Notes: a model not told the origin generated them from the letters alone. 64,000 bases of DNA from an uncultured Gammaproteobacteria bacterium (GCA_963711255.1 CAVQDO010000019.1:83022-147021); one strand, 5' to 3'. Positions 16,299 to 61,717 are shown, numbered from the stretch's first letter. Translations and numbers: made by a program.

Positions 16299-16311
16299 AC
16301 GAGATGCGAAT

Positions 16312-16680
16312 ATGAAATTACTCTACGTAGAAGACGAAGCCGATATCCGCGAAATTGCCGAATTCGCCCTCGAAGACGAAGGCTTCGATATCCTTTTTTG
16401 CGAGTCTGGTGAAAAGGCAGTGGAACAGGCGGCTGATTTTCAACCGGAAGCCATCCTGCTGGATGTTATGATGCCCGGCATGGATGGGCCCACCACACTA
16501 CAAAACCTGCGAACCCTGCCTGGACTGGAATCCACACCGGTCATCTTTCTTACCGCAAAGGTTCAGCCCAATGAAATTCAAAACTTTATTTCACTCGGCG
16601 CCATCGACGTCATCCCGAAACCCTTTGAACCGATGACACTGGCTGAACAGATTCGCGAAATACTGAGCCGTAGCCGCTAA
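16312..16680 (+). CDS. Single-domain response regulator (CheY-like receiver)
   Basis: 122 aa with DE...D...K receiver signature (LLDVMMPGMDG). Confidence 0.85.
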   Translation: MKLLYVEDEADIREIAEFALEDEGFDILFCESGEKAVEQAADFQPEAILLDVMMPGMDGPTTLQNLRTLPGLESTPVIFLTAKVQPNEIQNFISLGAIDVIPKPFEPMTLAEQIREILSRSR

Positions 16681-18311
16681 TGAGCACCAGCAAACAGGAA
16701 AAATTACGCAAGCTACAGGAAAAGTACATATCCCAGCTGCCAGGAAAACTCAATGCACTAAACCGGGTATGGCTGCATTCGCTGCACCATAATGACATTG
16801 ACGGCTTAAATCAGCTTCGCCAGCTGGCACATAACCTTGCCGGATCTGCAGGCACATTCGGTTTTCCTGCCGTCAGCGTCGAAGCCAGGAACCTTGAAGA
16901 CATACTGAGAAACCTGAGTGATATACAGGATTTAAACAACATCGTCGAAGAAAATATTGCCGATGCGCTGCAACGGATTGTCAGCTACGTTGAACTCGGA
17001 CCAGAGAATGTTGAAAGTCTTACACCGCTTGATCATGAAAAAGCTTACAGCACTGCTCAGTTTGACCGTCTGATTTACGTTATTGAAGATGACGACCTGC
17101 TGGCCCGCGAAATTGCCACCCAGCTTTATTACTTTGATTACGAAGTGGAAACCTTCTCCTCCACCGCGCGAGCAATGGAAGCAATAAAACTGCGCATGCC
17201 AACAGCTATGATTATTGATATACAACTGCCGGACGGCGATCTCGCCGGCCCGGAATTTGCGAGAGTATTTAACGAATTTTCTTCCACCGCCATACCTTCC
17301 ATATTTATTTCTTCACGTGATGACTGGCATGCACGCCTTGCCGCAGTGCAGGCCAATGGCAGCGCATACCTGACAAAACCGATAGACTTCAACGACCTGC
17401 TCGAACGCCTGGAAATGCTGACGGTTAGACAAATGCCAGAACCGCTCAAAATACTTATTGTTGATGACATGGAAGTACTGGCAGAACACTATGCCACTGT
17501 CTTAAGAAACGCCAACATGGAAGTGAAAACGGTTACCGATATCAATGACATGCTTGAAGCCTTAAGTGACTTTAAGCCGGAACTAATCTTAATGGATATC
17601 TACATGCCCCAGTGTTCCGGCCTTGATGCCGCAAAAATAATACGGCAAAAAGACGAACTGCTTGGCGTACCCATCGTTTTCCTGTCAACCGAAGCCGATC
17701 CTCTGCAGCATATTTCAGCCATGGAGCTGGGCGGCGACGACTTCCTGCAAAAACCCATTACCGATGACCGTCTGCTTGTTTCGGTTAGAACTCGCGCCCA
17801 GCGCTTTCGCCGTCTGCGCAGCCATATGCTTTGCGATGGACTCACCGGCCTGCTCAACCACGTTGCCGTCAGAACCCACCTCGAATCAGAAATTTCACGC
17901 GCACAACGCCAGAACGAAGCGCTTAGTTTCGCCATGATTGATATCGACAACTTCAAACAGGTAAATGATACCTACGGCCACCCTGTCGGTGACCGGGTAA
18001 TAAAAAGCATTGCGCGCATGCTAAAAAAACGTTTACGCAAATCAGATCTCATCGGCCGATATGGCGGCGAAGAGTTTGCCATCATACTGCCGGAAACCGA
18101 GTTAAATACTGCAAAAAAATTACTGGATGATGTACGGCAGAATTTTTCACAAATTACCCAGCAGGATCACGAAACCCAGTTTTACTGCACGCTCAGTGCA
18201 GGCGTAACGCAGCTATCAAAAAGCGACTCCCTGGACAGCCTGGTTAACACCGCCGATGAAGCACTCTACGAAGCAAAACATGCCGGTCGCAATCAGGTGT
18301 GTATAAAATGA
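16680..18311 (+). CDS. Hpt-REC-REC-GGDEF diguanylate cyclase
   Basis: N-terminal Hpt-like helix bundle (HNLAGSAGTFG), two receiver domains, C-terminal GGDEF with an intact GGEEF active site (RYGGEEFAI); start overlaps the upstream stop (TAATG). Confidence 0.85.
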   Translation: MSTSKQEKLRKLQEKYISQLPGKLNALNRVWLHSLHHNDIDGLNQLRQLAHNLAGSAGTFGFPAVSVEARNLEDILRNLSDIQDLNNIVEENIADALQRIVSYVELGPENVESLTPLDHEKAYSTAQFDRLIYVIEDDDLLAREIATQLYYFDYEVETFSSTARAMEAIKLRMPTAMIIDIQLPDGDLAGPEFARVFNEFSSTAIPSIFISSRDDWHARLAAVQANGSAYLTKPIDFNDLLERLEMLTVRQMPEPLKILIVDDMEVLAEHYATVLRNANMEVKTVTDINDMLEALSDFKPELILMDIYMPQCSGLDAAKIIRQKDELLGVPIVFLSTEADPLQHISAMELGGDDFLQKPITDDRLLVSVRTRAQRFRRLRSHMLCDGLTGLLNHVAVRTHLESEISRAQRQNEALSFAMIDIDNFKQVNDTYGHPVGDRVIKSIARMLKKRLRKSDLIGRYGGEEFAIILPETELNTAKKLLDDVRQNFSQITQQDHETQFYCTLSAGVTQLSKSDSLDSLVNTADEALYEAKHAGRNQVCIK

Positions 18312-19552
18312 AACCCGCGGCCATACCGGATAATGAAGAACAACGAATTCATCGATTAAATGAGCTGGGCATTCTTGATACGCTAGAAGAACAGGCCTAT
18401 GATGACCTTACTCAGCTGGCGGCAAAAATATGTGATACACCAATCGCGCTGGTGAGCCTGGTAGATACTGATCGACAATGGTTCAAATCCCACCATGGCC
18501 TGGACGCGCACGAAACTCCCCGCGATATCGCATTCTGCGCGCACGCTATTCTAGATGACCATGTATTTGTTGTAGAGGATTCCAGCAAAGACGAGCGCTT
18601 TCATGATAATCCATTAGCGACAGGCCATCCAGATGTAAAGTTCTACGCGGGCGCACCCCTGATAATGAGCGACAATCTCAGGCTCGGAACATTATGCGTT
18701 ATAGCAAATGAGCCTCGAACGATTTCCGATACTCAAAAGGCGGCCCTTGAGGCCCTGGCACGACAAACCATAAGCCAGATGGAGCTTCGCCTTAAAGTAA
18801 AAGAACTGCAAAGTCTGGACAACGCCAAGGACGAATTCATTTCCATGGTTAGTCACGAACTAAGGACACCGCTAACATCCATTACCGGCTCGCTTTCCCT
18901 GCTTTCAAACAACAAAGTTGGCCCATTAAGCAGTAAACAACAGAATATGGTGGCCATCGCTGCACGCAACAGTGACCGGCTTCTCTGCATCGTTAATGAC
19001 ATACTCGACCATGCAAAAATGGAAGCTGGTAAATTTGAAATCAGCCGTAAACCACATAAAGTTTTTGACCTACTTGAAAAAGCACTGGAACTAAATCAGC
19101 CCTATTGTGAAAAATGTAACTGCGAAATAATTCTGAAATTTAACGATGCGGATAAAGACAGGATAATTGAGTGCGATGAAAACCGCCTGTTGCAGGTGTT
19201 AAGCAATCTTATTTCTAACGCGGCGAAAGTTTCCAGCAATAAAGATATCATAGAGCTATCTCTTGTTATAGATAGCGACAAGGCACGTTTTGAAGTTACC
19301 GATCACGGACCAGGAATATCAAAAGAACAACAGAAGCACCTTTTCCAACGGTTCAAACAAATTGAAACCTCGGGAAACCAGAAAATGCCCGGTACAGGCC
19401 TTGGCCTCAGGATCAGCAAACATATTGTAGAACTTCACGATGGCCAGATCGATTTTGAATCATTACCCGGCGATTACACTAAATTTTATTTCACCATTAC
19501 ACTTAAGAAAATAAAACACGACACTCATCCGGATCGAAACTGCCGCCAGTGA
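18308..19552 (+). CDS. Cytoplasmic GAF-domain histidine kinase
   Basis: GAF-like N-terminus, H-box SHELRTPLTSITGSL, HATPase motifs (GTGLGL); ATGA overlap with the upstream gene. Confidence 0.8.
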   Translation: MKPAAIPDNEEQRIHRLNELGILDTLEEQAYDDLTQLAAKICDTPIALVSLVDTDRQWFKSHHGLDAHETPRDIAFCAHAILDDHVFVVEDSSKDERFHDNPLATGHPDVKFYAGAPLIMSDNLRLGTLCVIANEPRTISDTQKAALEALARQTISQMELRLKVKELQSLDNAKDEFISMVSHELRTPLTSITGSLSLLSNNKVGPLSSKQQNMVAIAARNSDRLLCIVNDILDHAKMEAGKFEISRKPHKVFDLLEKALELNQPYCEKCNCEIILKFNDADKDRIIECDENRLLQVLSNLISNAAKVSSNKDIIELSLVIDSDKARFEVTDHGPGISKEQQKHLFQRFKQIETSGNQKMPGTGLGLRISKHIVELHDGQIDFESLPGDYTKFYFTITLKKIKHDTHPDRNCRQ

Positions 19553-49971: not shown

Positions 49972-50403
49972 CTAGTAGCCGTATTGTTGGCGTGGAGCGT
50001 AGTATCCTGGTGGTGGACCGTATGGAGATGGTGCATTATTCGCCGGTGCGTTATTTGCAGGTGCTTGTTGCGCGGGTGCTTGTTGTGCAGGCGCAGGTGC
50101 ATAACCCTGAGGTGGCGCGTAATAACCTGGAGGCGGACCGTACCCTGGACCTGGGCCATAGCCATACCCTGGACCTGGACCATAACCGTAACCCGGGCCA
50201 GGACCGTAACCATAACCTGGACCATAGTAATCATCGTCATCATCAAACGCATCTTCCATTTCTTCCATCCAGTAACGTGGATCCCATTCGTCATAAGGGT
50301 TCCAGTCATTACCGCCCCAGCTGTCATTACCAAAGAATGCATAGCTGCTTGTTGCCGTTAGCAATAAACTCATTGCTATCGCTAATCGTACGATTGCTCT
50401 CAT
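49972..50403 (-). CDS. Secreted low-complexity Gly/Pro/Tyr-rich repeat protein
   Basis: Signal peptide MRAIVRLAIAMSLLLTATSSYA with a GGAGA RBS, then GYGYGPGPGY repeats and APAQQAPANNAP repeats; the DNA repeats create ORFs on both strands. Confidence 0.55.
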   Translation of the reverse strand: MRAIVRLAIAMSLLLTATSSYAFFGNDSWGGNDWNPYDEWDPRYWMEEMEDAFDDDDDYYGPGYGYGPGPGYGYGPGPGYGYGPGPGYGPPPGYYAPPQGYAPAPAQQAPAQQAPANNAPANNAPSPYGPPPGYYAPRQQYGY

Positions 50404-50595
50404 TATCTTCTCCATCATCAGGAATAATTGTTCTACCGCTGTCATTCTAAGACAGCACCCACCTTGCTTAAATGATCTGCGTCAATATTCCGCATTTCTT
50501 CATTAAGTTTAAAATTGCAACGTTTTCAACGACAACCACAAGGACGTGTATCGTTTATTTCTTTTTTTCCATGCTATCCAGAGCATCACCAAGAT

Positions 50596-51542: not shown

Positions 51543-52430
51543 TTACAGACTAAATCGTTTGAAATAACTCAAGCGTACCGTTAGGCCTTCATACTGCAAA
51601 TCAACATCAGATGCTTCTGATTCAAGATAGCGCGCAGACAGATCAAGCGAACTATGCAAATCCTGCACCCAGTTATAACCCAAAGTCACAAACTGGATAG
51701 TGGCATCAAGCTTGTAGGTTTGCTTATCAATAAAAACATCATCGTTCACAATATCAGGAAAAGATGCATCAATAACTTCAACACTTACATTGGAAGAGGA
51801 AGAAAAGGTATCTCCCTTCTGGATTTTATAAGTGGCGTATAGTATGTGTTTTTTAACCACTTCCCAGTCCAGGTTAAAAAAGAAAGAGCTATTCTGAGTA
51901 TCAAAAACCCGGCTTTCAGCATCACGATCCTGAAATGAAAAACCAAGACGCATACTGGTGGCATCATCAATCTGCATACCCATAGTCGCTGTTGCCCTGG
52001 CAACATTACTGTCACGCAAAAACGATTCAAACTCAATGACGCCGTATTCGGCATCAAGTGCAAACCAGGGCGCGCCGAAACCGCTGCCAAAACCAAAGGT
52101 GTAGTTTAATTTACCCGAAGCAACCAGGTTACTTAAACCATCGAAGCGCGAAAATTTATTGGCTTCCAGCAATACCTTTGCCACCAGCAGACCCGAGCGG
52201 CCTTCGAGTAACTCGTATCCACCTGTACCCGCCAGTGTTAAAAATCCATCATGCTCGATATCAACATTGGCGGCGGCACGAGTCACATTATCATCCAGAC
52301 CCAGCGTTGCCTCAAAATCAACAAAAGCTTCAGAACCGGCATGCGCCGTACCGAAAATCATAAATAACCCTGAAACTACAAAGGCTTTTGTACTTTTTGA
52401 GCGCCTGGCCATTGCTATATTTTTATCCAT
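51543..52430 (-). CDS. Putative outer-membrane beta-barrel protein
   Basis: Signal peptide ending AHA, amphipathic beta-strand pattern, C-terminal aromatic residue. Confidence 0.5.
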   Translation of the reverse strand: MDKNIAMARRSKSTKAFVVSGLFMIFGTAHAGSEAFVDFEATLGLDDNVTRAAANVDIEHDGFLTLAGTGGYELLEGRSGLLVAKVLLEANKFSRFDGLSNLVASGKLNYTFGFGSGFGAPWFALDAEYGVIEFESFLRDSNVARATATMGMQIDDATSMRLGFSFQDRDAESRVFDTQNSSFFFNLDWEVVKKHILYATYKIQKGDTFSSSSNVSVEVIDASFPDIVNDDVFIDKQTYKLDATIQFVTLGYNWVQDLHSSLDLSARYLESEASDVDLQYEGLTVRLSYFKRFSL

Positions 52431-52621
52431 TTATTTTGTTATACCTTTATACTCTAGCCTGTATTATGTGGACGGTATCACAAGTTCATAAAATTACAGA
52501 GAATACCATAGCAAAAATGTTAGCTAAATCACACCTTAAATAACGATTCGGTACATTTTTTAGCTATTATTAGAAGCAAGACAAGTTCAGGCATACATGC
52601 TGTAACCAGGAGCAATATACT

Positions 52622-53353
52622 ATGCGTCGTACACCTAAAGAAGAAATTGATGATCCACGTAGAGAATTATTAGTCAAAGCACTATCTACCGGAATGTTTG
52701 TTGCTGGCGGCAGTGCCGGGATATTACAACCCGTACATGCCATGGGAAAAATCCCAAAAGTACTTGAGCCCGGAAAATCAATTTATGACATGCGCGGCAA
52801 CGTCACTGTCAGCGGCAAAAAAGCCGATGAGAACACACTAATCACTAGCAGTGACACTGTGGTAACCGGACGACGCAGTCACGTAGTCTTTGCGGTAGGT
52901 AAAGACGCCTTTGTATTACGTAGCAATAGCCAGCTTGAACTTAGTGGTTCTGGCATGCTGATAAATACCCTGCGACTTGTCACCGGCAAACTGCTTTCGG
53001 TATTTGGCAAAACCACACACAAAATCAATACACCAAACGCAACGATTGGTATTCGCGGAACTGGCGTTTATACCGAAGCGGAACCTGATCAAACCTATAT
53101 CTGCACCTGCTATGGTGTTGTCGACCTGTTTGCCAATAATGATAAGAGCAGCACAGAAACGATTACCTCACTGCATCACGATGCGCCACGGTATATCCTT
53201 TCTAACGAGGCCAGTGGCAGAAACATTCGAGAAGCACCTTTTATTAACCATACCGACCTTGAATTGCAGGTTATCGAAGAGCTCGTTGGTCGCGAACCAC
53301 CATTTACAATGGCAGGCGGCGGATATTCAGCACCGCGACGCACTGATTACTGA
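52622..53353 (+). CDS. Tat-exported FecR-domain-like protein
   Basis: Twin-arginine signal (RRELLVKALSTGMFVAGGSAG); the central region resembles the FecR/DUF4880 beta-sandwich. Confidence 0.45.
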   Translation: MRRTPKEEIDDPRRELLVKALSTGMFVAGGSAGILQPVHAMGKIPKVLEPGKSIYDMRGNVTVSGKKADENTLITSSDTVVTGRRSHVVFAVGKDAFVLRSNSQLELSGSGMLINTLRLVTGKLLSVFGKTTHKINTPNATIGIRGTGVYTEAEPDQTYICTCYGVVDLFANNDKSSTETITSLHHDAPRYILSNEASGRNIREAPFINHTDLELQVIEELVGREPPFTMAGGGYSAPRRTDY

Positions 53354-53398
53354 TTACTGATTACGTTATGATTAGTGATTAGTGATTAGTGATTATTT
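53343..53398. repeat. Heptamer microsatellite (tgattac)x3 ... (tgattag)x4
   Basis: Read directly: ctgattactgattactgattacgttatgattagtgattagtgattagtgatta; it overlaps the stop codon of the upstream ORF. Confidence 0.8.
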
Positions 53399-53445
53399 TA
53401 TTACACTGAATACTGCGGTTAGAATAATTTAACTGCAGTAACCGG

Positions 53446-54708
53446 TTACTGATCATCTTTTAGCAGGCGCTTCGCGATAAATTTCATTGTTGGCGCCTGA
53501 ACAAACAACGAAAACATCACCACGCCAAAAGCAATAGACTGTATCGTCCACCAGTAGTCCAGGCTGGTTGGCAGGGATAATGCCAGCGCCAGTGTTACCG
53601 CTCCACGCAAGCCACCCCATACCATTAACGTCTGCGATGCAAAAGAAACTTTCAGGTTTTTGCAAAAAGCAAATAATAACATCACACCGTAGACACTCAA
53701 TGCCCTTGCCACCAGCAAGGCAACAATAGCAATTAGCATTGCCAGCCAGCGCTGCTCAAACATATCTAAAGTGATAACTGCCCCCACTATAAGGAAGACA
53801 CTTATATTCGCAACGTGTGCGAGAACCTTCCAGAAATAAATATTCCCTGGTTCAACTGCGGCTTTCCGCTTCCCCGACACATCGGCCAGGCTGTCGCCAC
53901 TAAGCATCGAAAAACTTAAAGCGGCCAGCAAGGTCGCCATAACGCCTGAAACATGAAAGAACTCGGCCAGCAGGTAAGAGCCATAGGCAACGACAAGGCT
54001 AATCATCGCCCTGACAATTAATGGCTGCATAATTTTTTGAACATAACCAAAAAATAGTCCGACACAAAGCCCGGTAAAAGCGCCACCAAAAAATATCAAT
54101 AGAAAATCAAGAATTACTTGCAGCACTGATTGAAGGTTCGTAAATGTGGCATCAGAACCCGTCGCCATTGCCATCGATAAAAACACACCAAATAACACTA
54201 TGGCCGTCGCATCATTAAACAGACTCTCACCTTCAAGCAATACTGCCATTCTTTTTGGAGCCTTCATCTCACGAAGCTTGTCGACTACCGCTACGGGATC
54301 TGTTGCTGCCAGAATAGCCCCCGTTATTAATGCAGCCAACCACGGGAACCCGCTTTCATGGGCAATACCGTAAAACAATAATATAGCCGCAATAAAACAG
54401 GTAAATAGCATTGCAACAACTGCAAGAGACAGGATTACAATTACGTTCTCTTTTAACCGCTGTTTGTCTATGCTGAAGGCTGATTCGAAAACCAGTACAG
54501 GAATGAACACATAAAAAATTATAGACTGAAAATTATCTGAACGAATCCTGGTATCAATACCTGCGTAGATCACAAGCTCTGACGCAAGAAAACCCAGAAC
54601 CACAAGAACACTGGCATAAGGTAAACGAGTCCAGCGGGAGACCGGTTGCGCAATCAATGAAAGCGTTATAATCAGGACCAGCGCCAGCATGATATGTTCA
54701 ACGAGCAT
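53446..54708 (-). CDS. Na+/H+ exchanger, CPA1 (NhaP-type)
   Basis: 420 aa polytopic protein with NhaP-like motifs (ATDPVAV, FNDATAIVLF). Confidence 0.8.
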   Translation of the reverse strand: MLVEHIMLALVLIITLSLIAQPVSRWTRLPYASVLVVLGFLASELVIYAGIDTRIRSDNFQSIIFYVFIPVLVFESAFSIDKQRLKENVIVILSLAVVAMLFTCFIAAILLFYGIAHESGFPWLAALITGAILAATDPVAVVDKLREMKAPKRMAVLLEGESLFNDATAIVLFGVFLSMAMATGSDATFTNLQSVLQVILDFLLIFFGGAFTGLCVGLFFGYVQKIMQPLIVRAMISLVVAYGSYLLAEFFHVSGVMATLLAALSFSMLSGDSLADVSGKRKAAVEPGNIYFWKVLAHVANISVFLIVGAVITLDMFEQRWLAMLIAIVALLVARALSVYGVMLLFAFCKNLKVSFASQTLMVWGGLRGAVTLALALSLPTSLDYWWTIQSIAFGVVMFSLFVQAPTMKFIAKRLLKDDQ

Positions 54709-54785
54709 GGTGTTGTGACAAACTAACCTCTCATTAATTCAGATGACTGCGAGCAAAGACAACTAGCAGACGATATTGTTAGTGA

Positions 54786-56807
54786 TTAGCTCACCTGCTG
54801 CCACTCACGCCAGTCAGAATGGTTTTGCGCAATATGAAACAGGGCGGCGATCACATTACTGTCGTAGCGTGTATCAGCCTCTGACATAAGAATTTCAAGC
54901 ACTTCTTTAATAGGCTTACCTGATCGATAGGCCCTGGCACTGGTCATTGCAACAAAAGCATTGGCAACCGACAAGATCCGGGATTCCTGTAATATATCAT
55001 CGCCAGTAACCCCATTCGGGTAACCACTACCATCCAGGCTTTCATTCTTCTGTTCCACAATCTTAATCACCGGTCCGTCGAAGTCCAGATCTTTGAGTAT
55101 ATCGACGCTATAGTTAATATTTTTACGCAGCATCAATTCTTCTTCTTTGGTCAAAGGATCAACCATGGTTAGCATTTCAGCTGGAATATATAGCTTTCCA
55201 ATATTTGCCAGTAACGCTGCCATCGCTAGCGTATCAATACGTTGCTTGGGCAAACCCATCGCCGCTGCAACGGCAACCGCAACTTCACGCGTTCTACCCG
55301 AATGATTTATACAATGCGGGTCATGTTTATCAATAAGCTGTGCAAGCGTGGTAATAACGCCTTCCATCAAACGGTTATGCCTGCCCTGCGCATCTTTTAT
55401 TTCTGTTATGTCATGCATAACATACAGGTGTGACTGGTTGTAATCTGGATGCTTTAAAGCTATCACTGACACATGATAGTCATTGCGCTTATCTTTAAAT
55501 TCAAGGCGCATTTCTTTGTTGCGCACATTCGCCTCATCGTCATTCGGTTTTATCGAAAGCAGCTTATCGGTGATCTCTTTATTAAACACATGATTTAAAG
55601 ACTTGCCACGAACATCCGCATTATCAATAGCGAATGACTTCGCTAATGCATCATTGATAAATACCAGCTTACATTTATGATCTATTAAAAATATATGATC
55701 GTTAATACTATCGCCTATAGCGTTTAATAACTCTGCCCTGGCTTTCAAACGACGCGTTGCTTTTTGCAAATGTAAACTAGTTGCATGCCGCCATATCGCA
55801 ATAAAACTGATTGTTACAACAAATACAACCAGCAAAAACACAATCAGAATAAAATTTTGATGTGCTGACGATTCCGCCATCGCTTCGCCGATATCTATTT
55901 TTTGCACCAGCAGCATATCGGTATTTCGCAGGTTTCTTGCCGTTGCCAGCACCTCTGTCTGCCGATAATCTTTCAAACTGGAAAATTCACCTACCCTTGC
56001 AGCCACAACAGATGCCGCACTGCTGGATCGTGCCTGTTTATGAAACACATTAAAACCATGCTTCAACGGGCTAAGATAATTAATACTGTTTTCATCGAGC
56101 TTAACCAGTAGTGTTTCTTCGCTACTGGTCGATATCCATTCCTTCAACAGTAATTGATACAGACTGTTCTCCGGATTAATAACAGCAACCACTGCGCCCT
56201 TATAATCACCGGAACCAAGCGATTGAACCGAACTTACGGGCACCACAATAATTAAACGCGGCTGGCTGCCGCCATTATCTGCCGCACCAAAATCACGTAT
56301 ATCAGAAATAACGATTTTCTGATTTTCCATGGCATGGGCATATGCCTTGTTTACTTCATCGTTATCGGGGAAATATCTTGTTGCCAGCAAAATACTGCTG
56401 CCATTAAAAACCGCGATGCCGTCATTTATACCATTTACAACTTCATTATTAATTTTATTAATTGGCGTAAAAACATTTGCATAATCTGCTGTCGCATTTA
56501 GCAGGTTTTTCAAATGACCCAGTTGACCACGACTGGTTTCATCAGCGGGCACATCGTTGAAATGAGACTGGCTAACAAAAATCTGCAACAGCGGATTATT
56601 CGCCAGGGAACTTAAAACATCCAGCTGCGCATCAAACCAGTCTTCGACAGAAGACTGTTGTGACTCAGCCATGATGGCCAGGCGCGCCTGCCAGTCATTC
56701 AGATCTCGCTGCTTTTCAGCAGACACATATTTAAATACCAGCCAGGTACTGCCGCCAATAAATAATAACAGTAAAATAAATGCAATAAGCGCCGGTTTAT
56801 TCTTCAC
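54786..56807 (-). CDS. Membrane sensor HD-GYP c-di-GMP phosphodiesterase (TM-periplasmic ~300 aa-TM-PAS-HD-GYP)
   Basis: HD motif (KHDPHCINHSGR) and GYP motif (LDGSGYPNG); two TM segments flank a large periplasmic domain. Confidence 0.8.
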   Translation of the reverse strand: MKNKPALIAFILLLLFIGGSTWLVFKYVSAEKQRDLNDWQARLAIMAESQQSSVEDWFDAQLDVLSSLANNPLLQIFVSQSHFNDVPADETSRGQLGHLKNLLNATADYANVFTPINKINNEVVNGINDGIAVFNGSSILLATRYFPDNDEVNKAYAHAMENQKIVISDIRDFGAADNGGSQPRLIIVVPVSSVQSLGSGDYKGAVVAVINPENSLYQLLLKEWISTSSEETLLVKLDENSINYLSPLKHGFNVFHKQARSSSAASVVAARVGEFSSLKDYRQTEVLATARNLRNTDMLLVQKIDIGEAMAESSAHQNFILIVFLLVVFVVTISFIAIWRHATSLHLQKATRRLKARAELLNAIGDSINDHIFLIDHKCKLVFINDALAKSFAIDNADVRGKSLNHVFNKEITDKLLSIKPNDDEANVRNKEMRLEFKDKRNDYHVSVIALKHPDYNQSHLYVMHDITEIKDAQGRHNRLMEGVITTLAQLIDKHDPHCINHSGRTREVAVAVAAAMGLPKQRIDTLAMAALLANIGKLYIPAEMLTMVDPLTKEEELMLRKNINYSVDILKDLDFDGPVIKIVEQKNESLDGSGYPNGVTGDDILQESRILSVANAFVAMTSARAYRSGKPIKEVLEILMSEADTRYDSNVIAALFHIAQNHSDWREWQQVS

Positions 56808-56845
56808 AATACACCCGTGTAAAACACTCGTTAATATATAAAACG

Positions 56846-57487
56846 CTAATTAGGAACATGCATCCACCAGTTACCTTCATTTACCGAGTAAACAGGCACG
56901 TAATGATAGATATCTAAATGTGATATAACTTCTTCTATCTGATTATCGAGTATAAGGATATCATTCTTATTTTGAATGGCCATTATAGCGTGAGGAATTC
57001 TCAAATTAGTATCCTGAACTACCACCACGCGCATACTTTTTACATCGACACCCAGCCATTTCATCGATAACATTTTAATAATGGCATAATCCTCGCAGTC
57101 ACCATTATTCACCAGAAACTCCTTTGGCGTCGCCCAGTAGTCAACTATCCCGTAATTTTCAATATCCAGAATATATTCCTTTTCATTGGCGTATTTATTT
57201 ACCTGCTTAATTTGCTGTAAAAGCGGAAGCGACTTTATATTTTCCAGAAAGCGCTGCCACTGTCTTAGGTGGCATTGATTAAACTGTGTCGATTGACAGG
57301 ATTTAGAATCGCTCAAATTCAGCACCTGGCGTTCAAGTACCGACAGCCATTGAGGAAACAGCGTTAGATCCTGCTTTTGAATTTCCTGATAACCAAATAA
57401 ACTGGAGGGCGTTGTATTGGCTGACCAGGCGGGGGAATTTGTCAGCAGCAACCATGTAATTATTATAGGGAGCGATTTTTTAGCCAT
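56846..57487 (-). CDS. Periplasmic bacterial transglutaminase-like cysteine proteinase (BTLCP, LapG-like)
   Basis: Signal peptide and the catalytic Cys motif NGDCEDYAIIK, with downstream His and Asp. Confidence 0.7.
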   Translation of the reverse strand: MAKKSLPIIITWLLLTNSPAWSANTTPSSLFGYQEIQKQDLTLFPQWLSVLERQVLNLSDSKSCQSTQFNQCHLRQWQRFLENIKSLPLLQQIKQVNKYANEKEYILDIENYGIVDYWATPKEFLVNNGDCEDYAIIKMLSMKWLGVDVKSMRVVVVQDTNLRIPHAIMAIQNKNDILILDNQIEEVISHLDIYHYVPVYSVNEGNWWMHVPN

Positions 57488-57537
57488 TGGCAGGTATAAT
57501 ACGCAACTTGTTCACATCCTGCACTACTTAGTTTTCC

Positions 57538-58833
57538 ATGACAAATAAAAACCATAAACCTGTTTCTTTACTCGCACTATTGCTTTCGCTGACATGCTAC
57601 ACCAACATCGCCTATGCTGCTGAAACGCCCGCTAACACAGAACTTTCAGATGAAGACGCTCAGCTGCTCTTCGAGCTTGCAATGGAGCAGCGTGACAGTG
57701 GAAAGATTTACACTGCGATAGAAAAATTTGAAGACATATTGAATCGTCGACCGTCACTTAATCGTGCACGACTGGAACTCGCTGTTAGCTATCACCGTGC
57801 CAGCCAATATGATAAAGCGCTAGCTCAATTTCAAGCTGTCCTGGACAACCCCGACACACCTGAAAAAGTTCGCCTCGCTATACTGGCCTATCTTGGACAG
57901 CTGACCAGCGACGAACTCAAACCTGCATCTGACAACAGCTTTTCATACTATACAAAAGCCGGCCTGTTATATAACAGCAACATTAACTTCGCACCATTAA
58001 GAGGAAGCGTCGAATACAACATACCGGACGGAAAGGACACAGCCTCCCCCGGACTGGACACCTTCTTCAGCGCCTCGCATCGTTACCGTGACAACAGGCC
58101 GTTTAATGTTGACGGCGCCGCCACGCATTTTGAATGGCAAAGCCAGCTATCCTGGACAGGCAACAACTACACACGCCAGAGTGATTACAATGTCAACACC
58201 CTTAGCGCCAGTACCGGCCCGGCATTTATTTCAACCGGCAGATGGCGCGGCGCGATCAACCTGCAAATCGACCAGACATTTTTTGGTAACTCAACGCTGG
58301 GCACCTTCACTTCGATCAACCCGCTGATTACTTTTGACCTGGGCAATTACCGCGGTGTTACCGTGGAAGCCTCCTACTCGAATAACGACTTCGCGCGCAG
58401 CGAAGACCAGGGACGCGATGGTAACAGCCTGCTGGCCGGCGCGGCATACTCAACCCTACTGGGCGGAGTTGATAATGGCCTTGAGACCGGTTTTCGCCTG
58501 ATGAAACAGACCGCTGATGACGACCAGTATGGCTTCGACCGGGGAGAAATTTATTTCGGCGGGTTTGCCGGCTATGACCCGAAAAGCAGTTTTTACCTGA
58601 ACATCAATTTCAAACAATATAAGTTTGACGCGGCCGATATCGTTTCAGGGACTGTCAGGGATGAAATAGAAAGCCTTTATACCATTGGTTACAATCGTGA
58701 TATTTCCGAAGGTTTGCTGGAAGGCTGGTCACTGAACACACACATTTCATTCACTAAAAACAATTCAAATGTTGATGCGTTTAGCTATGAGCGGACTCTG
58801 TTAGCCGTTAATCTGGCCCGTTATTTTATCTAA
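57538..58833 (+). CDS. TPR-containing outer-membrane beta-barrel protein (DUF560/Slam-like or BTLCP-operon TPR partner)
   Basis: Signal peptide, N-terminal TPR-like helices, C-terminal beta-strand-rich region ending in aromatic YFI. Confidence 0.5.
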   Translation: MTNKNHKPVSLLALLLSLTCYTNIAYAAETPANTELSDEDAQLLFELAMEQRDSGKIYTAIEKFEDILNRRPSLNRARLELAVSYHRASQYDKALAQFQAVLDNPDTPEKVRLAILAYLGQLTSDELKPASDNSFSYYTKAGLLYNSNINFAPLRGSVEYNIPDGKDTASPGLDTFFSASHRYRDNRPFNVDGAATHFEWQSQLSWTGNNYTRQSDYNVNTLSASTGPAFISTGRWRGAINLQIDQTFFGNSTLGTFTSINPLITFDLGNYRGVTVEASYSNNDFARSEDQGRDGNSLLAGAAYSTLLGGVDNGLETGFRLMKQTADDDQYGFDRGEIYFGGFAGYDPKSSFYLNINFKQYKFDAADIVSGTVRDEIESLYTIGYNRDISEGLLEGWSLNTHISFTKNNSNVDAFSYERTLLAVNLARYFI

Positions 58834-59373
58834 AGCCGAAAACCTATACTCTTGTTTACAGAATAAATTAGATTTCTGTCAGAAAATTGCCACATTGTGT
58901 AAATATTACCAACACTTAAGTTTGATTAAAAACTAACCATTTTCGCAATTACTGCATAAAAAATAATCAAAACCACTTCCAAGTGTAAGATTAACCGAAA
59001 AGTGTCGAGATTCATTACATCAAGAAGGTTGCTTCAGTTTTTCGCCATGTCAGAGTCTGTCGGCAACCCTATTAAAACTTTATAACCCCTTGATAGATAA
59101 CTGCTTTGCGACAATAGTAGAGTATAATGATCAGGCGGAAGTACTGTATACAGATGACAGCAAAGTCTTTAAATATTTGAACATAAGCATATAATTAATA
59201 AAATTCTTTACAGTAGTTAACATTAGCCGACGTAATTATGGCTGCAGCAACAGCTAAATCAGCTTATAATAAATTACTCAGGCGTAAGTTATTGATATAA
59301 TAACGCATGCTTTTCGATGGCACGAATTATGCATCATATAATTTGATATTAATTGGTATGTTGTTTAAATAAA

Positions 59374-59808
59374 ATGAACAAAAATATAGTTACTTTAAAA
59401 ATGCCAGCTCTGCTGACTTCAGGCTTATTGCTTGTTTCACTATCACTGGTATTTTCATCCGGCAGTGTAGCGGCCCAGGACGCTACCCCTGAGGACATCG
59501 CGGCCCAGAAAAGTGAAGCAACCGCTTTCGTTGACTCCGTTCATGAATGGGGCGCATGGGGACTTGATATTGAACCTGCCGCAGGTGGTATCCAGCCACA
59601 ATCAACTGGCCCGTTAAATGCGCGTGGCAGTAAACTATCACTGCGCACAAACAGTATTGCGGCACTGGCACCGAAACGTCCGCCAGTTCCGATCAACAAC
59701 CCTCCACAACCAACACCTGTAGCCCCACCGGAAATACCGGTAACGCCTCCGCCTCCGCCACCACCAGTAACACCCCCTGTTGGCGGACCGACTGATGGCT
59801 TATTTTAA
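59374..59808 (+). CDS. Secreted proline-rich protein
   Basis: Signal peptide, then a PPQPTPVAPPEIPVTPPPPPPPVTPPVGGP tail. Confidence 0.45.
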   Translation: MNKNIVTLKMPALLTSGLLLVSLSLVFSSGSVAAQDATPEDIAAQKSEATAFVDSVHEWGAWGLDIEPAAGGIQPQSTGPLNARGSKLSLRTNSIAALAPKRPPVPINNPPQPTPVAPPEIPVTPPPPPPPVTPPVGGPTDGLF

Positions 59809-59822
59809 ATAGTGAGACAATT

Positions 59823-60537
59823 ATGAAAAACACATACTTATATGCTTTATTCGTGATTACAGCTGCATTCAACACTGCACAGGCAGCCACTATCTTTGAA
59901 ATACAGGCTGACGTCGCGGTATACGCAAATGCTGTAACCGACAAAACAGGTATTTATTACGATCAGTCCTTCACTGGCTTTGCGTCGTCGACACCTGCCA
60001 CATTCAGCCAGTTAAATACCAGCTTATCCGGTGGCGACCTGACAACATATGGCTGGACACCAAACGCACATCTACCCTCACGTTAATGTGCCCGGCGAGC
60101 AACCTGTAGGCAACTCATATATCGATCTTGGCTTTAGCGGCAACATCTACAATGGTGATGGTGTTGACCTGGTTCTATTTTTTGCAGGCAACGGAACGAA
60201 CCTATCAACAGGCACATTTGACTATAATTTTTCTGTTGATATCGGCGCCGATGATTCTATCGAAGCATCAAATATCGGTGTAATTAGCAGCTCAACATCC
60301 AGCATTTACGGCGATCGTTTCTTCGCCTCTTACGCGATGATTGACCTCGATGACTTTGGCTTTGATCAGCATACTGCGCTGGGTGATATCAGAATTCATC
60401 TGGGTGATATCAGCATGCCAGCCCTGGCCGCCGTCGGCGCCTATCACACGACTGCTGTGCCACTGCCAGCAAGCCTCGTATTATTCGGTTCTGGCCTGAC
60501 ACTTCTTTCTCTATTTAGAAGAAAGCCACAGGCATAA
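59823..60537 (+). pseudogene. PEP-CTERM (exosortase-sorted) secreted protein interrupted by a frameshift near 60050-60086
   Basis: Signal peptide MKNTYLYALFVITAAFNTAQA opens an ORF that stops at 60086; the downstream ORF in another frame ends in the PEP-CTERM signature VPLPASLVLFGSGLTLLSLFRRK. Confidence 0.5.
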
Positions 60538-60634
60538 TCCTGGACTAATACCGGCCTGATCCAGCTCTGCCCTGGAACCAGCTCTAGCGCCCCGACTTTG
60601 CAATGATTATTTCACTGTAATAGACGGGGCGCTT

Positions 60635-60643
60635 TGGTATAAT
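60635..60643 (+). promoter_or_regulatory. Candidate extended -10 element (TGgTATAAT) for the PP-loop/TusA operon
   Basis: tggtataat lies 31 bp upstream of the ATG; no convincing -35. Confidence 0.3.
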
Positions 60644-60673
60644 AGGGGTTCACTTCCAAACCTTTTTAGCGCT

Positions 60674-61717
60674 ATGTCACAACAACGTAAAGCTGTCGCC
60701 CTCATCTCGGGTGGCCTTGATTCATTACTCGCCGCCAAATTACTGATTGATCAGGGCGTCCATGTTGAAGGCATTAATTTTTATACGGGCTTCTGTGTCG
60801 AAGGCCACACTCATGCGATACGCAAAAAAGACAAGGCTAAACCGAAACGCAACAATGCATTATGGAGCGCGGAACAGCTTGGCATAAAGCTGCACATCAT
60901 CGATATTATCGACGAGTATAAAGATGTGCTGATTAACCCCAAGCACGGTTACGGCGCAAACATGAACCCCTGCCTGGACTGTAAAATATTCATGGTCGGA
61001 AAAGCCAAACAGTGGATGGATGAAAACGGCTTCGACTTCATCATTACGGGTGAAGTTATAGGCCAGCGCCCTATGTCACAGCGCAAAAACCTGCTACCTG
61101 TTGTGGTACGAGAATCTGGTGCTGATGACCGCCTGCTGAGACCGCTTTGTGCAAAAAACCTTGCTGTGACACTGCCAGAGCGAGAAGGCTGGGTGGACCG
61201 TGAAAAACTAAAAAATTTCGGTGGACGTAACCGTAAACCACAAATGGCACTGGCTGCTGAATTTGGTTTTGATGACTATGCAACACCAGCTGGTGGCTGC
61301 TGCTTCCTTACCGACAAAAGCTATTCAGATAAACTGGTAGATTTATGGCAGGCGAGAAATAAAAAGGATTACGAGCTCGACGATATTATGCTGCTGAAAG
61401 TCGGCCGACATTTACGTCCTGAGCCACATTACAAATTGATCGTCAGCCGTGAAGACGGCGAAAATAAATTCCTGCAGGGATACCGTAAGCACTTTACCAC
61501 CATTGAAATCAAAAGCCATAACGGCCCGTTAACTTTAGTTGACGGTGAATTAAGCGATGAAGATATGAAATTTGCATCACGAATCGCTGCGCGCTTTAGC
61601 CAGGGGCGTGACGCAGAAAGCGTCAGCGTTAAAGTAACGCGGCCTGGCGGTGAAGAGCAGCAGTTCGACATTCCGCCGTTACCGGTTTCCGAAATAAAGC
61701 AGGAATGGTATGTATGA
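60674..61717 (+). CDS. PP-loop ATP pyrophosphatase of the tRNA-thiolation family (MnmA/ThiI-like)
   Basis: SGGLDS PP-loop at the N-terminus, NPCLDCK and GGCCFLT Cys motifs; translationally coupled to a TusA gene. Confidence 0.55.
   Translation: MSQQRKAVALISGGLDSLLAAKLLIDQGVHVEGINFYTGFCVEGHTHAIRKKDKAKPKRNNALWSAEQLGIKLHIIDIIDEYKDVLINPKHGYGANMNPCLDCKIFMVGKAKQWMDENGFDFIITGEVIGQRPMSQRKNLLPVVVRESGADDRLLRPLCAKNLAVTLPEREGWVDREKLKNFGGRNRKPQMALAAEFGFDDYATPAGGCCFLTDKSYSDKLVDLWQARNKKDYELDDIMLLKVGRHLRPEPHYKLIVSREDGENKFLQGYRKHFTTIEIKSHNGPLTLVDGELSDEDMKFASRIAARFSQGRDAESVSVKVTRPGGEEQQFDIPPLPVSEIKQEWYV

What the first reader, a model, noticed from the sequence alone, without database searches (positions are those of the whole stretch)
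54786..58833. LapG-like BTLCP protease paired with a periplasmic-sensor HD-GYP phosphodiesterase and a TPR beta-barrel protein
In characterised Lap systems the periplasmic BTLCP protease LapG is encoded next to LapD. LapD is a TM-periplasmic-TM-HAMP-GGDEF-EAL c-di-GMP receptor that sequesters LapG. Here the BTLCP gene (catalytic NGDCEDYA) sits directly upstream of, and on the same strand as, a TM-periplasmic(~300 aa)-TM-PAS-HD-GYP protein. A signal-peptide TPR/beta-barrel gene is divergent from this pair. An HD-GYP protein in the LapD position would be an uncommon variant of inside-out c-di-GMP control of a periplasmic protease. No LapA-like giant adhesin is in the window.
Basis: partly seen in the sequence, partly recalled or inferred. 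Interest (0 to 1): 0.65.

Follow-up and report, generated by a model that had tools for sequence, protein, structure and literature searches.

The report
c-di-GMP-gated protease module with Slam-like barrel
A periplasmic LapG-type protease sits beside a catalytically dead HD-GYP c-di-GMP receptor of the kind recently described in Desulfovibrio (DvhG/DvhD), but here the pair is always linked to a Slam-like outer-membrane barrel and a small secreted protein carrying the protease's cleavage motif, instead of to a giant adhesin.

Summary
In detail: all three ORFs are at the stated coordinates with the stated domains.

**The protease-receptor pair is a known kind.**
- The 673-aa protein is not a LapD relative and is very unlikely to be a phosphodiesterase.
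- It is a homologue of Desulfovibrio vulgaris DvhD, with the layout TM-dCache-TM-PAS-degenerate HD-GYP.
- The best PDB sequence hit is DvhD PAS/HD-GYP (E 1e-35). The best fold hit for the periplasmic domain is DvhD dCache.
- The metal ligands are lost in 47/47 orthologues, while GYP and most c-di-GMP contacts are kept.
- The BTLCP keeps the Cys-His-Asp triad and the D-C-E calcium site in 57/57 orthologues.
- So the pair is a DvhG/DvhD-type inside-out c-di-GMP switch, described in 2024 and 2026.

**The context is new.**
- In about 55 species of uncultured sediment Gammaproteobacteria the pair is divergently linked to a TPR plus ~14-strand barrel protein. This protein is a distant Slam/T11SS relative.
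- The barrel gene is followed by a small Sec-secreted, Pro-rich protein with an almost invariant DSVYxWGxW(x4-5)PAAG motif. PAAG is a validated LapG cleavage site.
- A VPLPA/PEP-CTERM protein follows that.
- No T1SS or giant adhesin lies nearby.

**Reading.** I read this as a "mini-Lap" system whose substrate is the PAAG protein. That part is inferred, not shown.

The parts
54786..56807 (-). DvhD-like inner-membrane c-di-GMP receptor (673 aa). Layout: TM1 (~res 5-28), periplasmic dCache (~res 29-315, nt 55863..56723), TM2 (~res 316-337), PAS (~res 355-470, nt 55398..55745), degenerate HD-GYP (res 487-652, nt 54852..55349).
   Evidence: Pfam gives dCache_1, PAS and HD_5. PDB phmmer finds 9rc0_A/9rbz_A (DvhD PAS/HD-GYP) at E 1.3e-35. 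The AF2 model of residues 28-318 has pLDDT 82.6, and its best PDB fold hit is 9rc2, the DvhD periplasmic domain, followed by other dCache domains. The metal ligands are degenerate in 47/47 orthologues, while GYP and most c-di-GMP contact residues are conserved.
56846..57487 (-). Periplasmic LapG/DvhG-type BTLCP cysteine protease (213 aa) with a Sec signal peptide. Catalytic residues are C131 (nt 57095..57097), H166 and D181. The calcium-site residues D130 and E132 flank the Cys.
   Evidence: Pfam Peptidase_C93 scores 67 bits. The NCBIfam LapG equivalog scores only 80 bits against a cut-off of 320. PDB LapG entries 4u65_E and 4fgo_A match at E ~1e-17. D-C-E, H and D are invariant in 57/57 orthologues. 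The gene lies 38 bp upstream of the receptor gene on the same strand.
57538..58833 (+). Outer-membrane protein (431 aa): signal peptide, a three-repeat TPR domain (~res 38-125, nt 57649..57912) and a beta-barrel of about 14 strands (~res 138-431). It is a distant relative of Slam/T11SS (DUF560) proteins.
59374..59808 (+). Small Sec-secreted, Pro-rich protein (144 aa from the ATG at 59374; the mechanical ORF starts at a TTG at 59353). It carries the conserved motif DSVHEWGAWGLDIEPAAG (nt 59533..59586). The predicted scissile bond lies between the two Ala codons at 59578..59583. This is the candidate BTLCP substrate.
   Evidence: A motif ORF lies immediately downstream of the barrel gene in 36 of 41 loci. 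The five exceptions are three truncated flanks and two insertions of foreign genes. The motif regex hits exactly 36 of 3702 locus ORFs, all at this position. The four-residue site is PAAG in 33 of 37 sequences (the window plus 36 loci), and S, G and W are invariant. Background PAAG frequency is 0.07 per 1000 aa. PAAG is the validated LapG site of V. cholerae FrhA. There is no Pfam or NCBIfam family for this protein. About 48 small-protein cluster representatives carry it in 1.84 billion proteins.
59823..60537 (+). VPLPA/PEP-CTERM-type secreted protein, about 237 aa when intact. In the window it is split by a 1-nt frameshift into 59823..60086 and 60049..60537.
   Evidence: The intact 237-aa orthologue in L008 covers both halves. 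The frameshift region was read directly. There are weak PEP-CTERM and VPLPA-CTERM hits. A VP[LV]P[AL]-TM-RRK C-terminus protein follows the motif gene in 26/29 loci.
53446..54708 (-). CPA1 Na+/H+ exchanger, co-directional and 77 bp downstream of the receptor gene. It is an accessory neighbour, not part of the core module.
   Evidence: Pfam Na_H_Exchanger scores 187 bits. The gene is present after the receptor gene only in the closer relatives L004, L007, L008, L010, L012, L013 and L016.

Best explanation
This is a five-gene envelope module.

**Layer 1 (well supported).** The BTLCP and the 673-aa membrane protein form a DvhG/DvhD-type pair.
- The receptor's HD-GYP domain has lost its catalytic metal site and acts as a c-di-GMP sensor.
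- Nucleotide binding is relayed through the PAS domain, the stalk and the TM helices to a periplasmic dCache domain.
- At high c-di-GMP the dCache domain restrains the soluble, calcium-dependent periplasmic protease. At low c-di-GMP the protease is free.

**Layer 2 (inferred).** The protease's local substrate is the small Sec-exported protein encoded after the barrel gene.
- An aromatic "targeting" segment (DSVYxWGxW) docks on the protease.
- The PA|AG bond four to five residues downstream is cut.
- By analogy with LapA in LapE and CdrA in CdrB, the uncut protein is held at the Slam-like TPR-barrel. Its short N-terminal piece stays in the periplasm, plausibly bound by the TPR domain. Its Pro-rich C-terminal part passes through the barrel to the surface.
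- Cleavage releases the surface part.
- The adjacent VPLPA/PEP-CTERM protein is a co-conserved partner of unknown role.
For: **Layer 1**
- The best PDB sequence match is DvhD PAS/HD-GYP (9rc0/9rbz, E 1e-35). It shares degenerate signatures, for example ILSVANAFVAM against ILAVANAFCAM.
- The best PDB fold match for the periplasmic model is the DvhD dCache domain (9rc2).
- HD, HH and D..D are replaced in 47/47 orthologues. GYP, the IGK lysine and the equivalents of DvhD L577, R650, Y652 and P567 are invariant.
- The BTLCP triad and the D-C-E calcium site are invariant in 57/57 orthologues.
- The gene order G->D, with a 38-bp gap, is the same as dvhG-dvhD.
- DvhD/DvhG function has been established experimentally (PMC10990149; PMC13090378).

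**Layer 2**
- The barrel and the pair are syntenic in 53 loci, with identities down to about 30%.
- The motif ORF is present in 36/41 loci, and the regex is specific: 36 hits in 3702 ORFs, all at the expected position.
- PAAG occurs in 33/37 sequences, against a background of 0.07 per 1000 aa.
- No other module protein carries a conserved [TAP]AAG.
- [T/A/P]AAG preceded by a hydrophobic targeting helix is the defined LapG/DvhG recognition element, and PAAG is FrhA's site.
- The motif protein has a Sec signal peptide, so it reaches the protease's compartment.
- In L047 and L050 the region N-terminal to the motif is a lipobox plus coiled coil. In L036, L040 and L049 the region C-terminal to it carries an extra domain. 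Both fit the layout "N-terminal anchor, cleavage site, linker, displayed part".
- The three non-gammaproteobacterial loci without the barrel also lack the motif ORF.
- The barrel resembles Slam translocons, and its TPR resembles peptide-binding TPRs.
Against: - Nothing here shows proteolysis, c-di-GMP binding or surface exposure.
- Two of eight DvhD canonical-site contacts differ (K582->E/Q, Y523->H/Y/N).
- The periplasmic domain is only 14% identical to DvhD's, so the DvhD-DvhG docking mode may not transfer.
- The N-terminal piece left after cleavage would be only about 18-40 residues in most orthologues. That is far too small to act as a steric plug like LapA's retention module.
- Known Slam/T11SS cargo have a C-terminal beta-barrel domain, which this protein lacks.
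- The barrel's Pfam scores are below the curated thresholds in the window protein, and the AF2 model is of only moderate confidence (pLDDT 63.8; residues 120-218 are below 50).
- A T1SS adhesin elsewhere in the genome could be the main substrate, or an additional one. Only 64 kb were visible.
Confidence: 0.55

Rival explanations
1. This is a canonical Lap/Dvh logic with a remote substrate. The pair controls a giant T1SS (or T5b) adhesin encoded elsewhere in the genome. The barrel, the PAAG protein and the PEP-CTERM protein are functionally separate neighbours.
For: Known LapG and DvhG proteases act on adhesins encoded at other loci, such as MapA, CdrA and DVU1545. Only 64 kb of the genome was visible, and no adhesin is in it. 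The alphaproteobacterial locus L055 has an ORF of more than 1000 aa beside the pair.
Against: The barrel and the pair stay divergently adjacent across about 53 species-level genomes while the surrounding genes change. A near-invariant PAAG site sits in the neighbouring small protein and in no other module protein. No T1SS gene appears within +/-10 kb in any gammaproteobacterial locus.
Confidence: 0.15
2. The PAAG protein is processed, but the functional product is the conserved N-terminal peptide (about 18-40 residues, DSVYxWGxW...PA). It would be released as a periplasmic or exported signal, or act as a pseudosubstrate or inhibitor that occupies the protease. It would not be a surface-display cargo.
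For: Sequence conservation is concentrated in the N-terminal peptide. The C-terminal part is conserved only in composition. In many orthologues the signal-peptidase site lies 1-4 residues before the motif, which gives a defined short peptide. TPR domains of this type bind short peptides.
Against: Orthologues with a lipobox and coiled coil before the motif, or with a folded domain after it, fit an anchor-and-cargo layout better. A second conserved patch ([LF]R[PT]N[ED]) follows the cleavage site. In known systems, conservation of the targeting helix is explained by protease recognition alone.
Confidence: 0.15
3. The barrel belongs to an exosortase/PEP-CTERM or exopolysaccharide export pathway, like the TPR-porins PgaA, BcsC and PelB. 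The BTLCP would process the PEP-CTERM protein or the barrel itself.
Against: The PEP-CTERM and barrel families lack a conserved [TAP]AAG site (1/24 and 3/45). The model has about 14 strands, whereas EPS porins have 16-18. No glycosyltransferase, exosortase or EPS genes lie in the conserved neighbourhood.
Confidence: 0.08
4. The 673-aa protein is an active, ligand-sensing HD-GYP phosphodiesterase that lowers c-di-GMP. Its adjacency to the protease reflects co-regulation only.
For: HD_5 scores 133 bits, and source annotations call homologues "HD-GYP c-di-GMP phosphodiesterase class II". The first His (HxxR) and, in 34/47 orthologues, the third-motif His are retained.
Against: Five of the metal-ligand positions are non-ligands in 47/47 orthologues. 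The closest characterised homologue, DvhD, has the same substitutions, no bound metal and no PDE activity with any added ion.
Confidence: 0.04

Closest known systems
DvhG/DvhD (DVU1019/DVU1020) of Desulfovibrio (Nitratidesulfovibrio) vulgaris Hildenborough
   Same: - The gene order is the same: BTLCP, then receptor.
- The receptor has the same architecture: TM-dCache-TM-PAS-HD-GYP.
- The same HD-GYP positions are degenerate, and GYP and most c-di-GMP contacts are retained.
- It gives the best sequence and fold matches in the PDB.
- The protease has the C-H-D triad and the D-C-E calcium site.
- Like most DvhG orthologues, it has a signal peptide.
   Different: - The class is different: uncultured sediment Gammaproteobacteria rather than Desulfovibrionales.
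- There is no T1SS and no giant adhesin with a beta-rich retention domain at the locus.
- A Slam-like TPR-barrel, a small PAAG protein and a PEP-CTERM protein take their place.
- The periplasmic domains are only about 14% identical.
- The protease lacks the TM anchor and long linker of D. vulgaris DvhG.
LapG/LapD/LapA-LapE system (Pseudomonas fluorescens, V. cholerae, Legionella, Bordetella)
   Same: - A periplasmic calcium-dependent BTLCP is encoded beside an inner-membrane receptor with a dead c-di-GMP enzyme domain, giving inside-out signalling.
- The cleavage consensus is [T/A/P]AAG after a hydrophobic targeting segment.
- The candidate substrate layout is the same: N-terminal periplasmic piece, cleavage site, then the part beyond the outer membrane.
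   Different: - The receptor is unrelated to LapD. It has no LapD_MoxY_N, HAMP, GGDEF or EAL domain.
- The protease scores 80 bits against the 320-bit LapG equivalog cut-off.
- The candidate substrate is a Sec-exported protein of about 100-390 aa, not a T1SS RTX adhesin of thousands of residues.
- The candidate conduit is a monomeric barrel of about 14 strands, not a TolC-like LapE.
CdrA/CdrB (P. aeruginosa type Vb secretion substrate cleaved by LapG)
   Same: It is the precedent for a LapG-type protease controlling a Sec-dependent substrate held in a non-T1SS outer-membrane barrel.
   Different: CdrB is a 16-strand Omp85/TpsB transporter with POTRA domains, and CdrA is a large TpsA-type adhesin. 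Here the barrel is TPR plus about 14 strands, and the substrate is tiny.
Slam / type XI secretion system outer-membrane proteins (DUF560: Slam1/2, NilB, HrpB)
   Same: - The layout is an N-terminal periplasmic TPR domain plus a C-terminal 14-strand barrel.
- The cargo gene lies next to the OMP gene.
- The cargo is Sec-exported.
- TPR_Slam matches all 37 orthologues tested.
   Different: - The match is only a distant one, below threshold for the window protein.
- The neighbour lacks the TbpBBD or C-terminal 8-strand barrel domain that defines known cargo, and in most orthologues it is not a lipoprotein.
- No TonB or TonB-dependent receptor lies nearby.
- No known T11SS is linked to a protease or to c-di-GMP.

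Membership tests
DvhDG-type c-di-GMP/protease switch | Receptor architecture TM - periplasmic dCache - TM - PAS - HD-GYP | tested here: met
   Pfam assigns the domains. DvhD PAS/HD-GYP is the top PDB sequence hit at E 1.3e-35. The DvhD dCache domain (9rc2) is the top PDB fold hit, with E 2.2e-9 and TM 0.63/0.72.
DvhDG-type c-di-GMP/protease switch | HD-GYP domain lacks the metal-coordinating HD and HH motifs (a receptor, not an enzyme) but keeps c-di-GMP-contacting residues | tested here: met
   HD is replaced by A-N, HH by K-N/Q, and D..D by N..V in 47/47 orthologues. The equivalents of L577, Y621, M646, R650, Y652 and E668 are kept in the window protein, while K582 and Y523 are not.
DvhDG-type c-di-GMP/protease switch | [quoted passage not shown] | tested here: met
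   D130-C131-E132, H166 and D181 are invariant in 57/57 orthologues. The gene lies 38 bp upstream on the same strand.
DvhDG-type c-di-GMP/protease switch | Operon context with a T1SS and a giant adhesin bearing an N-terminal retention domain plus [T/A/P]AAG | tested here: not met
   There is no T1SS or large adhesin in the window, and none within +/-10 kb in the gammaproteobacterial loci. A small PAAG protein and a TPR-barrel are present instead.
DvhDG-type c-di-GMP/protease switch | High-affinity c-di-GMP binding and c-di-GMP-dependent restraint of the protease | not testable with these tools
   This needs ITC and PDE assays plus reconstitution, as done for DvhD.
Lap system (LapG/LapD) | LapD receptor: LapD_MoxY_N periplasmic domain plus HAMP-GGDEF-EAL | tested here: not met
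   There is no LapD_MoxY_N, HAMP, GGDEF or EAL hit at E<0.01.
Lap system (LapG/LapD) | Protease meets the LapG equivalog model | tested here: not met
   NF045674 scores 80.4 bits against a cut-off of 320. It is a BTLCP (PF06035, 67 bits) and about 30% identical to the solved LapG structures.
Lap system (LapG/LapD) | Substrate carries [T/A/P]AAG after a targeting helix | tested here: inconclusive
   The neighbouring small protein has DSVHEWGAWGLDIE-PAAG, conserved in 36 loci. Cleavage was not tested.
Slam / T11SS outer-membrane protein (DUF560) | N-terminal periplasmic TPR domain of the Slam type | tested here: met
   TPR_Slam matches 37/37 orthologues, with a best E of 4e-9. The window protein scores 27.6 bits, below the gathering score of 35.2. 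The model shows helices at residues 38-125.
Slam / T11SS outer-membrane protein (DUF560) | C-terminal 14-strand DUF560 (SlipAM) barrel | tested here: inconclusive
Slam / T11SS outer-membrane protein (DUF560) | Adjacent cargo with a TbpBBD or C-terminal beta-barrel domain (a lipoprotein or hemophilin-like protein) | tested here: not met
   The neighbour has no Pfam or NCBIfam domain and is Pro-rich and low in complexity. A lipobox is present only in L047 and L050.

The most novel reading that the evidence does not exclude
This would be a third class of LapG-type regulated surface display. Cytoplasmic c-di-GMP, read by a dead HD-GYP/dCache receptor, gates a periplasmic BTLCP. The protease clips a small Sec-exported protein at PA|AG and so releases it from a Slam/T11SS-like TPR-barrel. 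If true, this would be the first link between the T11SS/Slam superfamily and both second-messenger control and regulated proteolysis. It would also show that a retention element can be a short TPR-bound peptide rather than a folded plug.
Probability: 0.4. Interest if true: 0.75.

Novelty: new variant of a known kind. Interest (0 to 1): 0.6.

Why it matters
**What is already known.** The protease-receptor pair extends the recently defined DvhDG switch from sulfate reducers to a broad set of uncultured marine and sediment Gammaproteobacteria (Thiogranum, Thiohalobacter, Thiotrichaceae and Arenicellales relatives).

**What would matter if the inferred part is right.**
- The LapG principle, release of a surface protein by c-di-GMP-gated periplasmic cleavage, would not be tied to giant adhesins or to T1SS and T5SS conduits.
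- It would also give a function and a regulatory input to an environmental branch of the Slam/DUF560 superfamily for which no cargo is known.
- The predicted substrate is a compact, easily synthesised peptide, suitable for testing BTLCP specificity.
- The module is small enough (five genes, about 6 kb) to be reconstituted heterologously.

Tried and rejected
**Ideas tested and rejected**
- **LapD-like output domain.** Rejected. There is no LapD_MoxY_N hit, and the fold is dCache.
- **Active phosphodiesterase.** Rejected on the ligand analysis.
- **Giant adhesin or T1SS in the window.** None found. The 1129-aa ORF is a hybrid kinase.
- **c-di-GMP riboswitch or another RNA element** in the 540-bp spacer before the PAAG gene or elsewhere in 53000..61000. 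No Rfam match at E<=1.
- **A conserved [TAP]AAG in the barrel, PEP-CTERM or BTLCP families.** Absent.

**Analyses that gave nothing useful**
- The promoter and terminator scan returned counts at the shuffled expectation.
- The large proteins hit by the PAAG-region phmmer search (P0398, P0402, P0407) are unrelated WGxW-type repeats.

The barrel was therefore modelled from a shallow alignment (>=65% identity) and reached only moderate confidence.
- The AFDB fold library was unavailable.
- Looking up the source contig by exact protein found nothing.

**Literature**
- Searches found no paper linking DUF560, Slam, T11SS or PEP-CTERM with LapG, BTLCP or c-di-GMP gating.

Full report
**1. Observation**

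- 54786..56807 (-) encodes a 673-aa protein. It has two hydrophobic segments flanking a stretch of about 290 residues. Pfam assigns that stretch to dCache_1 (34.8 bits, below the gathering score of 45). A PAS domain and a strong HD_5 (HD-GYP) domain of 133 bits follow.
- 56846..57487 (-) encodes a 213-aa protein with a signal peptide, the sequence NGDCEDYA, and a Peptidase_C93/BTLCP match of 67 bits.
- 57538..58833 (+) lies 50 bp away on the other strand. It encodes a 431-aa signal-peptide protein with TPR repeats and a beta-rich C-terminal two-thirds.
- No giant adhesin is in the window. The largest ORF, 1129 aa, is a hybrid histidine kinase.

**2. The protease**

- It matches the two solved LapG proteins at E ~1e-17.
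- It reaches only 80 bits on NCBI's LapG equivalog model, whose cut-off is 320. It is therefore a LapG-like BTLCP, not a LapG orthologue.
- The catalytic Cys131, His166 and Asp181 are invariant in all 57 related genes retrieved. So are Asp130 and Glu132, which flank the Cys. In LapG and DvhG those flanking residues form the calcium site (PMC13090378).

**3. The membrane protein is a DvhD homologue, not a phosphodiesterase and not a LapD relative**

- Against all PDB sequences the best hit, at E 1.3e-35 over PAS plus HD-GYP, is 9rc0/9rbz.
- Those entries belong to DvhD (DVU1020) of Desulfovibrio vulgaris, described by Font et al., Nat Commun 2026 (PMC13090378), following Karbelkar et al., PNAS 2024 (PMC10990149).
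- These papers show four things:
  - DvhD is TM-dCache-TM-PAS-HD-GYP.
  - Its HD-GYP domain lacks the metal ligands and has no phosphodiesterase activity.
  - It binds c-di-GMP with sub-micromolar affinity.
  - It confers c-di-GMP-dependent control on the adjacent BTLCP DvhG, which cleaves T1SS adhesins at [T/A/P]AAG.
- I aligned the window protein, 47 orthologues, DvhD and two active HD-GYP enzymes.
  - HD is A-N here and S-Q in DvhD.
  - HH is K-N/Q here and M-N in DvhD.
  - The DxxD pair is N..V here and N..C in DvhD.
  - All these substitutions hold in 47/47 orthologues.
  - GYP, the IGK lysine and the equivalents of DvhD L577, R650, Y652 and P567 are invariant.
  - Y621, M646 and E668 are conserved in the window protein. 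K582 and Y523 are not.
- An AF2 model of the periplasmic region (pLDDT 82.6) finds the DvhD periplasmic domain (9rc2) as its best PDB match. Dozens of other dCache sensor domains follow.
- No LapD_MoxY_N, HAMP, GGDEF or EAL domain is detected.
It does not refute the idea, because the characterised HD-GYP counterpart of LapD uses exactly such a domain.
- The pair is best filed as a new member of the DvhDG kind. This part is not novel.

**4. Conservation of the neighbourhood**

- A genome scan with the protease returned 57 loci. 54 come from uncultured Gammaproteobacteria: Thiogranum, Thiohalobacter, Thiotrichaceae, Arenicellales and unclassified sediment MAGs.
- In essentially all of these 54, the barrel gene is divergent from BTLCP->receptor. 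Identities fall to about 50% for the protease and about 30% for the receptor and the barrel.
- All-against-all clustering of the locus ORFs shows only five conserved families: protease (56 loci), receptor (56), barrel (53), a protein of about 220 aa (29 by similarity) and a small protein (20 by similarity). Everything else is lineage-specific housekeeping.
- The CPA1 antiporter after the receptor gene is kept only in the closer relatives.

**5. The barrel protein**

- Pfam gives TPR_Slam and a full-length but sub-threshold SlipAM (DUF560) match in the window protein.
- Across 37 orthologues, TPR_Slam matches 37, SlipAM 15 and DUF2860 9.
- The AF2 model is of moderate quality (pLDDT 63.8; the first strands are poorly defined). 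It shows a helical TPR module followed by 13-14 strands.
- I therefore treat it as a distant member of the Slam/T11SS superfamily by architecture. Family membership is unproven.

**6. The small protein: the main new finding**

- Immediately after the barrel gene every evaluable locus encodes a Sec-signal-peptide protein of about 100-390 aa. Its only strongly conserved part is [DN]-S-[VAI]-Y-x-W-G-x-W-x(4-5)-P-A-A-G.
- In the window this is DSVHEWGAWGLDIEPAAG (nt 59533..59586), in the ORF 59353/59374..59808.
- The motif ORF is present in 36 of 41 loci with any flank. Three exceptions are cut by contig ends. In two (L026, L030) foreign genes occupy the position.
- A regular expression for the motif hits 36 of 3702 six-frame ORFs in all loci, every one at the expected position. 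It hits none in the three non-gammaproteobacterial loci that lack the barrel.
- The four-residue site is PAAG in 33 of 37 sequences (the window plus 36 loci) and PASG, PASA or PSAG in the rest.
- PAAG occurs 0.07 times per 1000 residues in the background. None of the other module proteins has a conserved [TAP]AAG.
- [T/A/P]AAG, with the scissile bond between the alanines and a hydrophobic targeting helix just upstream, is the experimentally defined recognition element of LapG and DvhG. PAAG itself is the validated site of V. cholerae FrhA.
- The rest of the protein is Pro-rich and variable. There is a second, weaker conserved patch ([LF]R[PT]N[ED]) 15-25 residues after the site.
- Two variants are informative.
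  - In L047 and L050 the segment before the motif is a lipobox plus a coiled coil of about 150 residues.
  - In L036, L040 and L049 the segment after it carries an extra domain of about 250 residues.
  - Both fit the layout "periplasmic anchor, cleavage site, linker, displayed part".
- The family has no Pfam or NCBIfam model. A phmmer search of 1.84 billion representatives gives 53 hits, about 48 of them genuine small proteins.

**7. The fifth gene**

- It encodes a signal-peptide protein of about 220 aa. It ends in VP[LV]P[AL], a hydrophobic helix and RRK, which is a PEP-CTERM/VPLPA-CTERM sorting signal. It is present in 26/29 loci.
- In the window it is split by a 1-nt frameshift (59823..60086 and 60049..60537). 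The L008 orthologue is intact.
- Its role is unknown.

**8. Mechanism**

- *Shown by homology to characterised proteins.* A calcium-dependent periplasmic cysteine protease is paired with a c-di-GMP-sensing, catalytically dead HD-GYP/dCache receptor. By analogy with DvhDG and LapDG, the protease is restrained at high c-di-GMP and free at low c-di-GMP.
- *Inferred from synteny and the motif.* The PAAG protein is the local substrate, and the Slam-like barrel is its outer-membrane partner. Cleavage at PA|AG separates a short conserved periplasmic N-terminal piece from a Pro-rich C-terminal part, which is then released.
- *Speculative.* The N-terminal piece is held by the TPR domain.
- *Weak points.*
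  - The N-terminal piece is too small to be a steric plug.
  - Known T11SS cargo have a C-terminal barrel domain that is absent here.
  - The barrel's family assignment is sub-threshold.
  - A remote T1SS adhesin cannot be excluded from 64 kb.

**9. Novelty and score**

- The "HD-GYP in the LapD position" idea is right but already published.
- The new element is the invariant coupling of such a pair to a Slam-like barrel, a small PAAG-motif protein and a PEP-CTERM protein in sediment Gammaproteobacteria. I found no literature on this coupling.
- I rate it a new variant of a known kind, with interest 0.6.
- Confidence is about 0.85 for the DvhDG-type assignment and about 0.55 for the full model including the substrate.

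Noticed in passing
window 59823..60537 (+): The VPLPA/PEP-CTERM protein gene is split into two overlapping ORFs (59823..60086 and 60049..60537) by a single-base frameshift near 60078..60090. The L008 orthologue is one 237-aa ORF. This could be an assembly error or a real pseudogene.
   Followed up: partly
window 12909..19552 (+): Three signalling genes lie in a row about 37 kb from the receptor: a HAMP-PAS-GAF hybrid histidine kinase with REC domains (1129 aa), an Hpt-REC-REC-GGDEF diguanylate cyclase (543 aa) and a GAF histidine kinase (417 aa). They are a possible local source of c-di-GMP.
   Followed up: no
window 53342..53395: About eight copies of the heptamer ACTGATT are arranged as a long hairpin (20-pair stem), followed by a T-rich run. 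The element sits between the convergent FecR-like gene (52622..53353) and the CPA1 antiporter gene. It looks like a bidirectional terminator built from a microsatellite.
   Followed up: no
window 49972..50445 (-): A small secreted protein made largely of GPGYGYGPGP-type Gly/Pro/Tyr repeats (24-nt tandem repeat at 50125..50223). It has homologues a few kb from the module in L002, L004, L006, L008, L010 and L013. No family hit.
   Followed up: no
window 58834..59373: An AT-rich non-coding spacer of about 540 bp lies between the barrel gene and the PAAG-protein gene. It has no Rfam match. Comparable gaps of 230-640 nt occur in most related loci (863 nt in L027), which suggests a separate, regulated promoter for the PAAG and PEP-CTERM genes.
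   Followed up: partly
L026:6790-8364 and L030:365-2339: In two Thiohalobacter/Thiogranum loci the slot normally holding the PAAG-protein gene is occupied by foreign genes: a HipA-like kinase plus an XRE antitoxin in one, and an IS200-like transposase plus an ATPase in the other.
   Followed up: no
L047:7411-8169, L050:7132-8106; L036:7147-8325, L040:2516-3589, L049:7129-8238: There are architectural variants of the PAAG protein. Two have a lipobox and a coiled coil of about 150 residues before the motif. Three have a Cys-containing domain of about 250 residues after it.
   Followed up: partly
L056:556-1734; L055:218-3235: Outside the Gammaproteobacteria the pair occurs without the barrel or the PAAG gene. 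The Desulfurivibrionaceae BTLCP ORF is 392 aa as a first-start mechanical ORF and overlaps an upstream gene, so a DvhG-like long N-terminal extension is possible but unconfirmed. The alphaproteobacterial locus has an ORF of more than 1000 aa beside the receptor gene.
   Followed up: no
window 51543..53353: A divergent pair: a 295-aa signal-peptide protein with no family hit (beta-barrel-like by eye) and a FecR-domain protein (243 aa). The pair is conserved next to the module only in L007.
   Followed up: no
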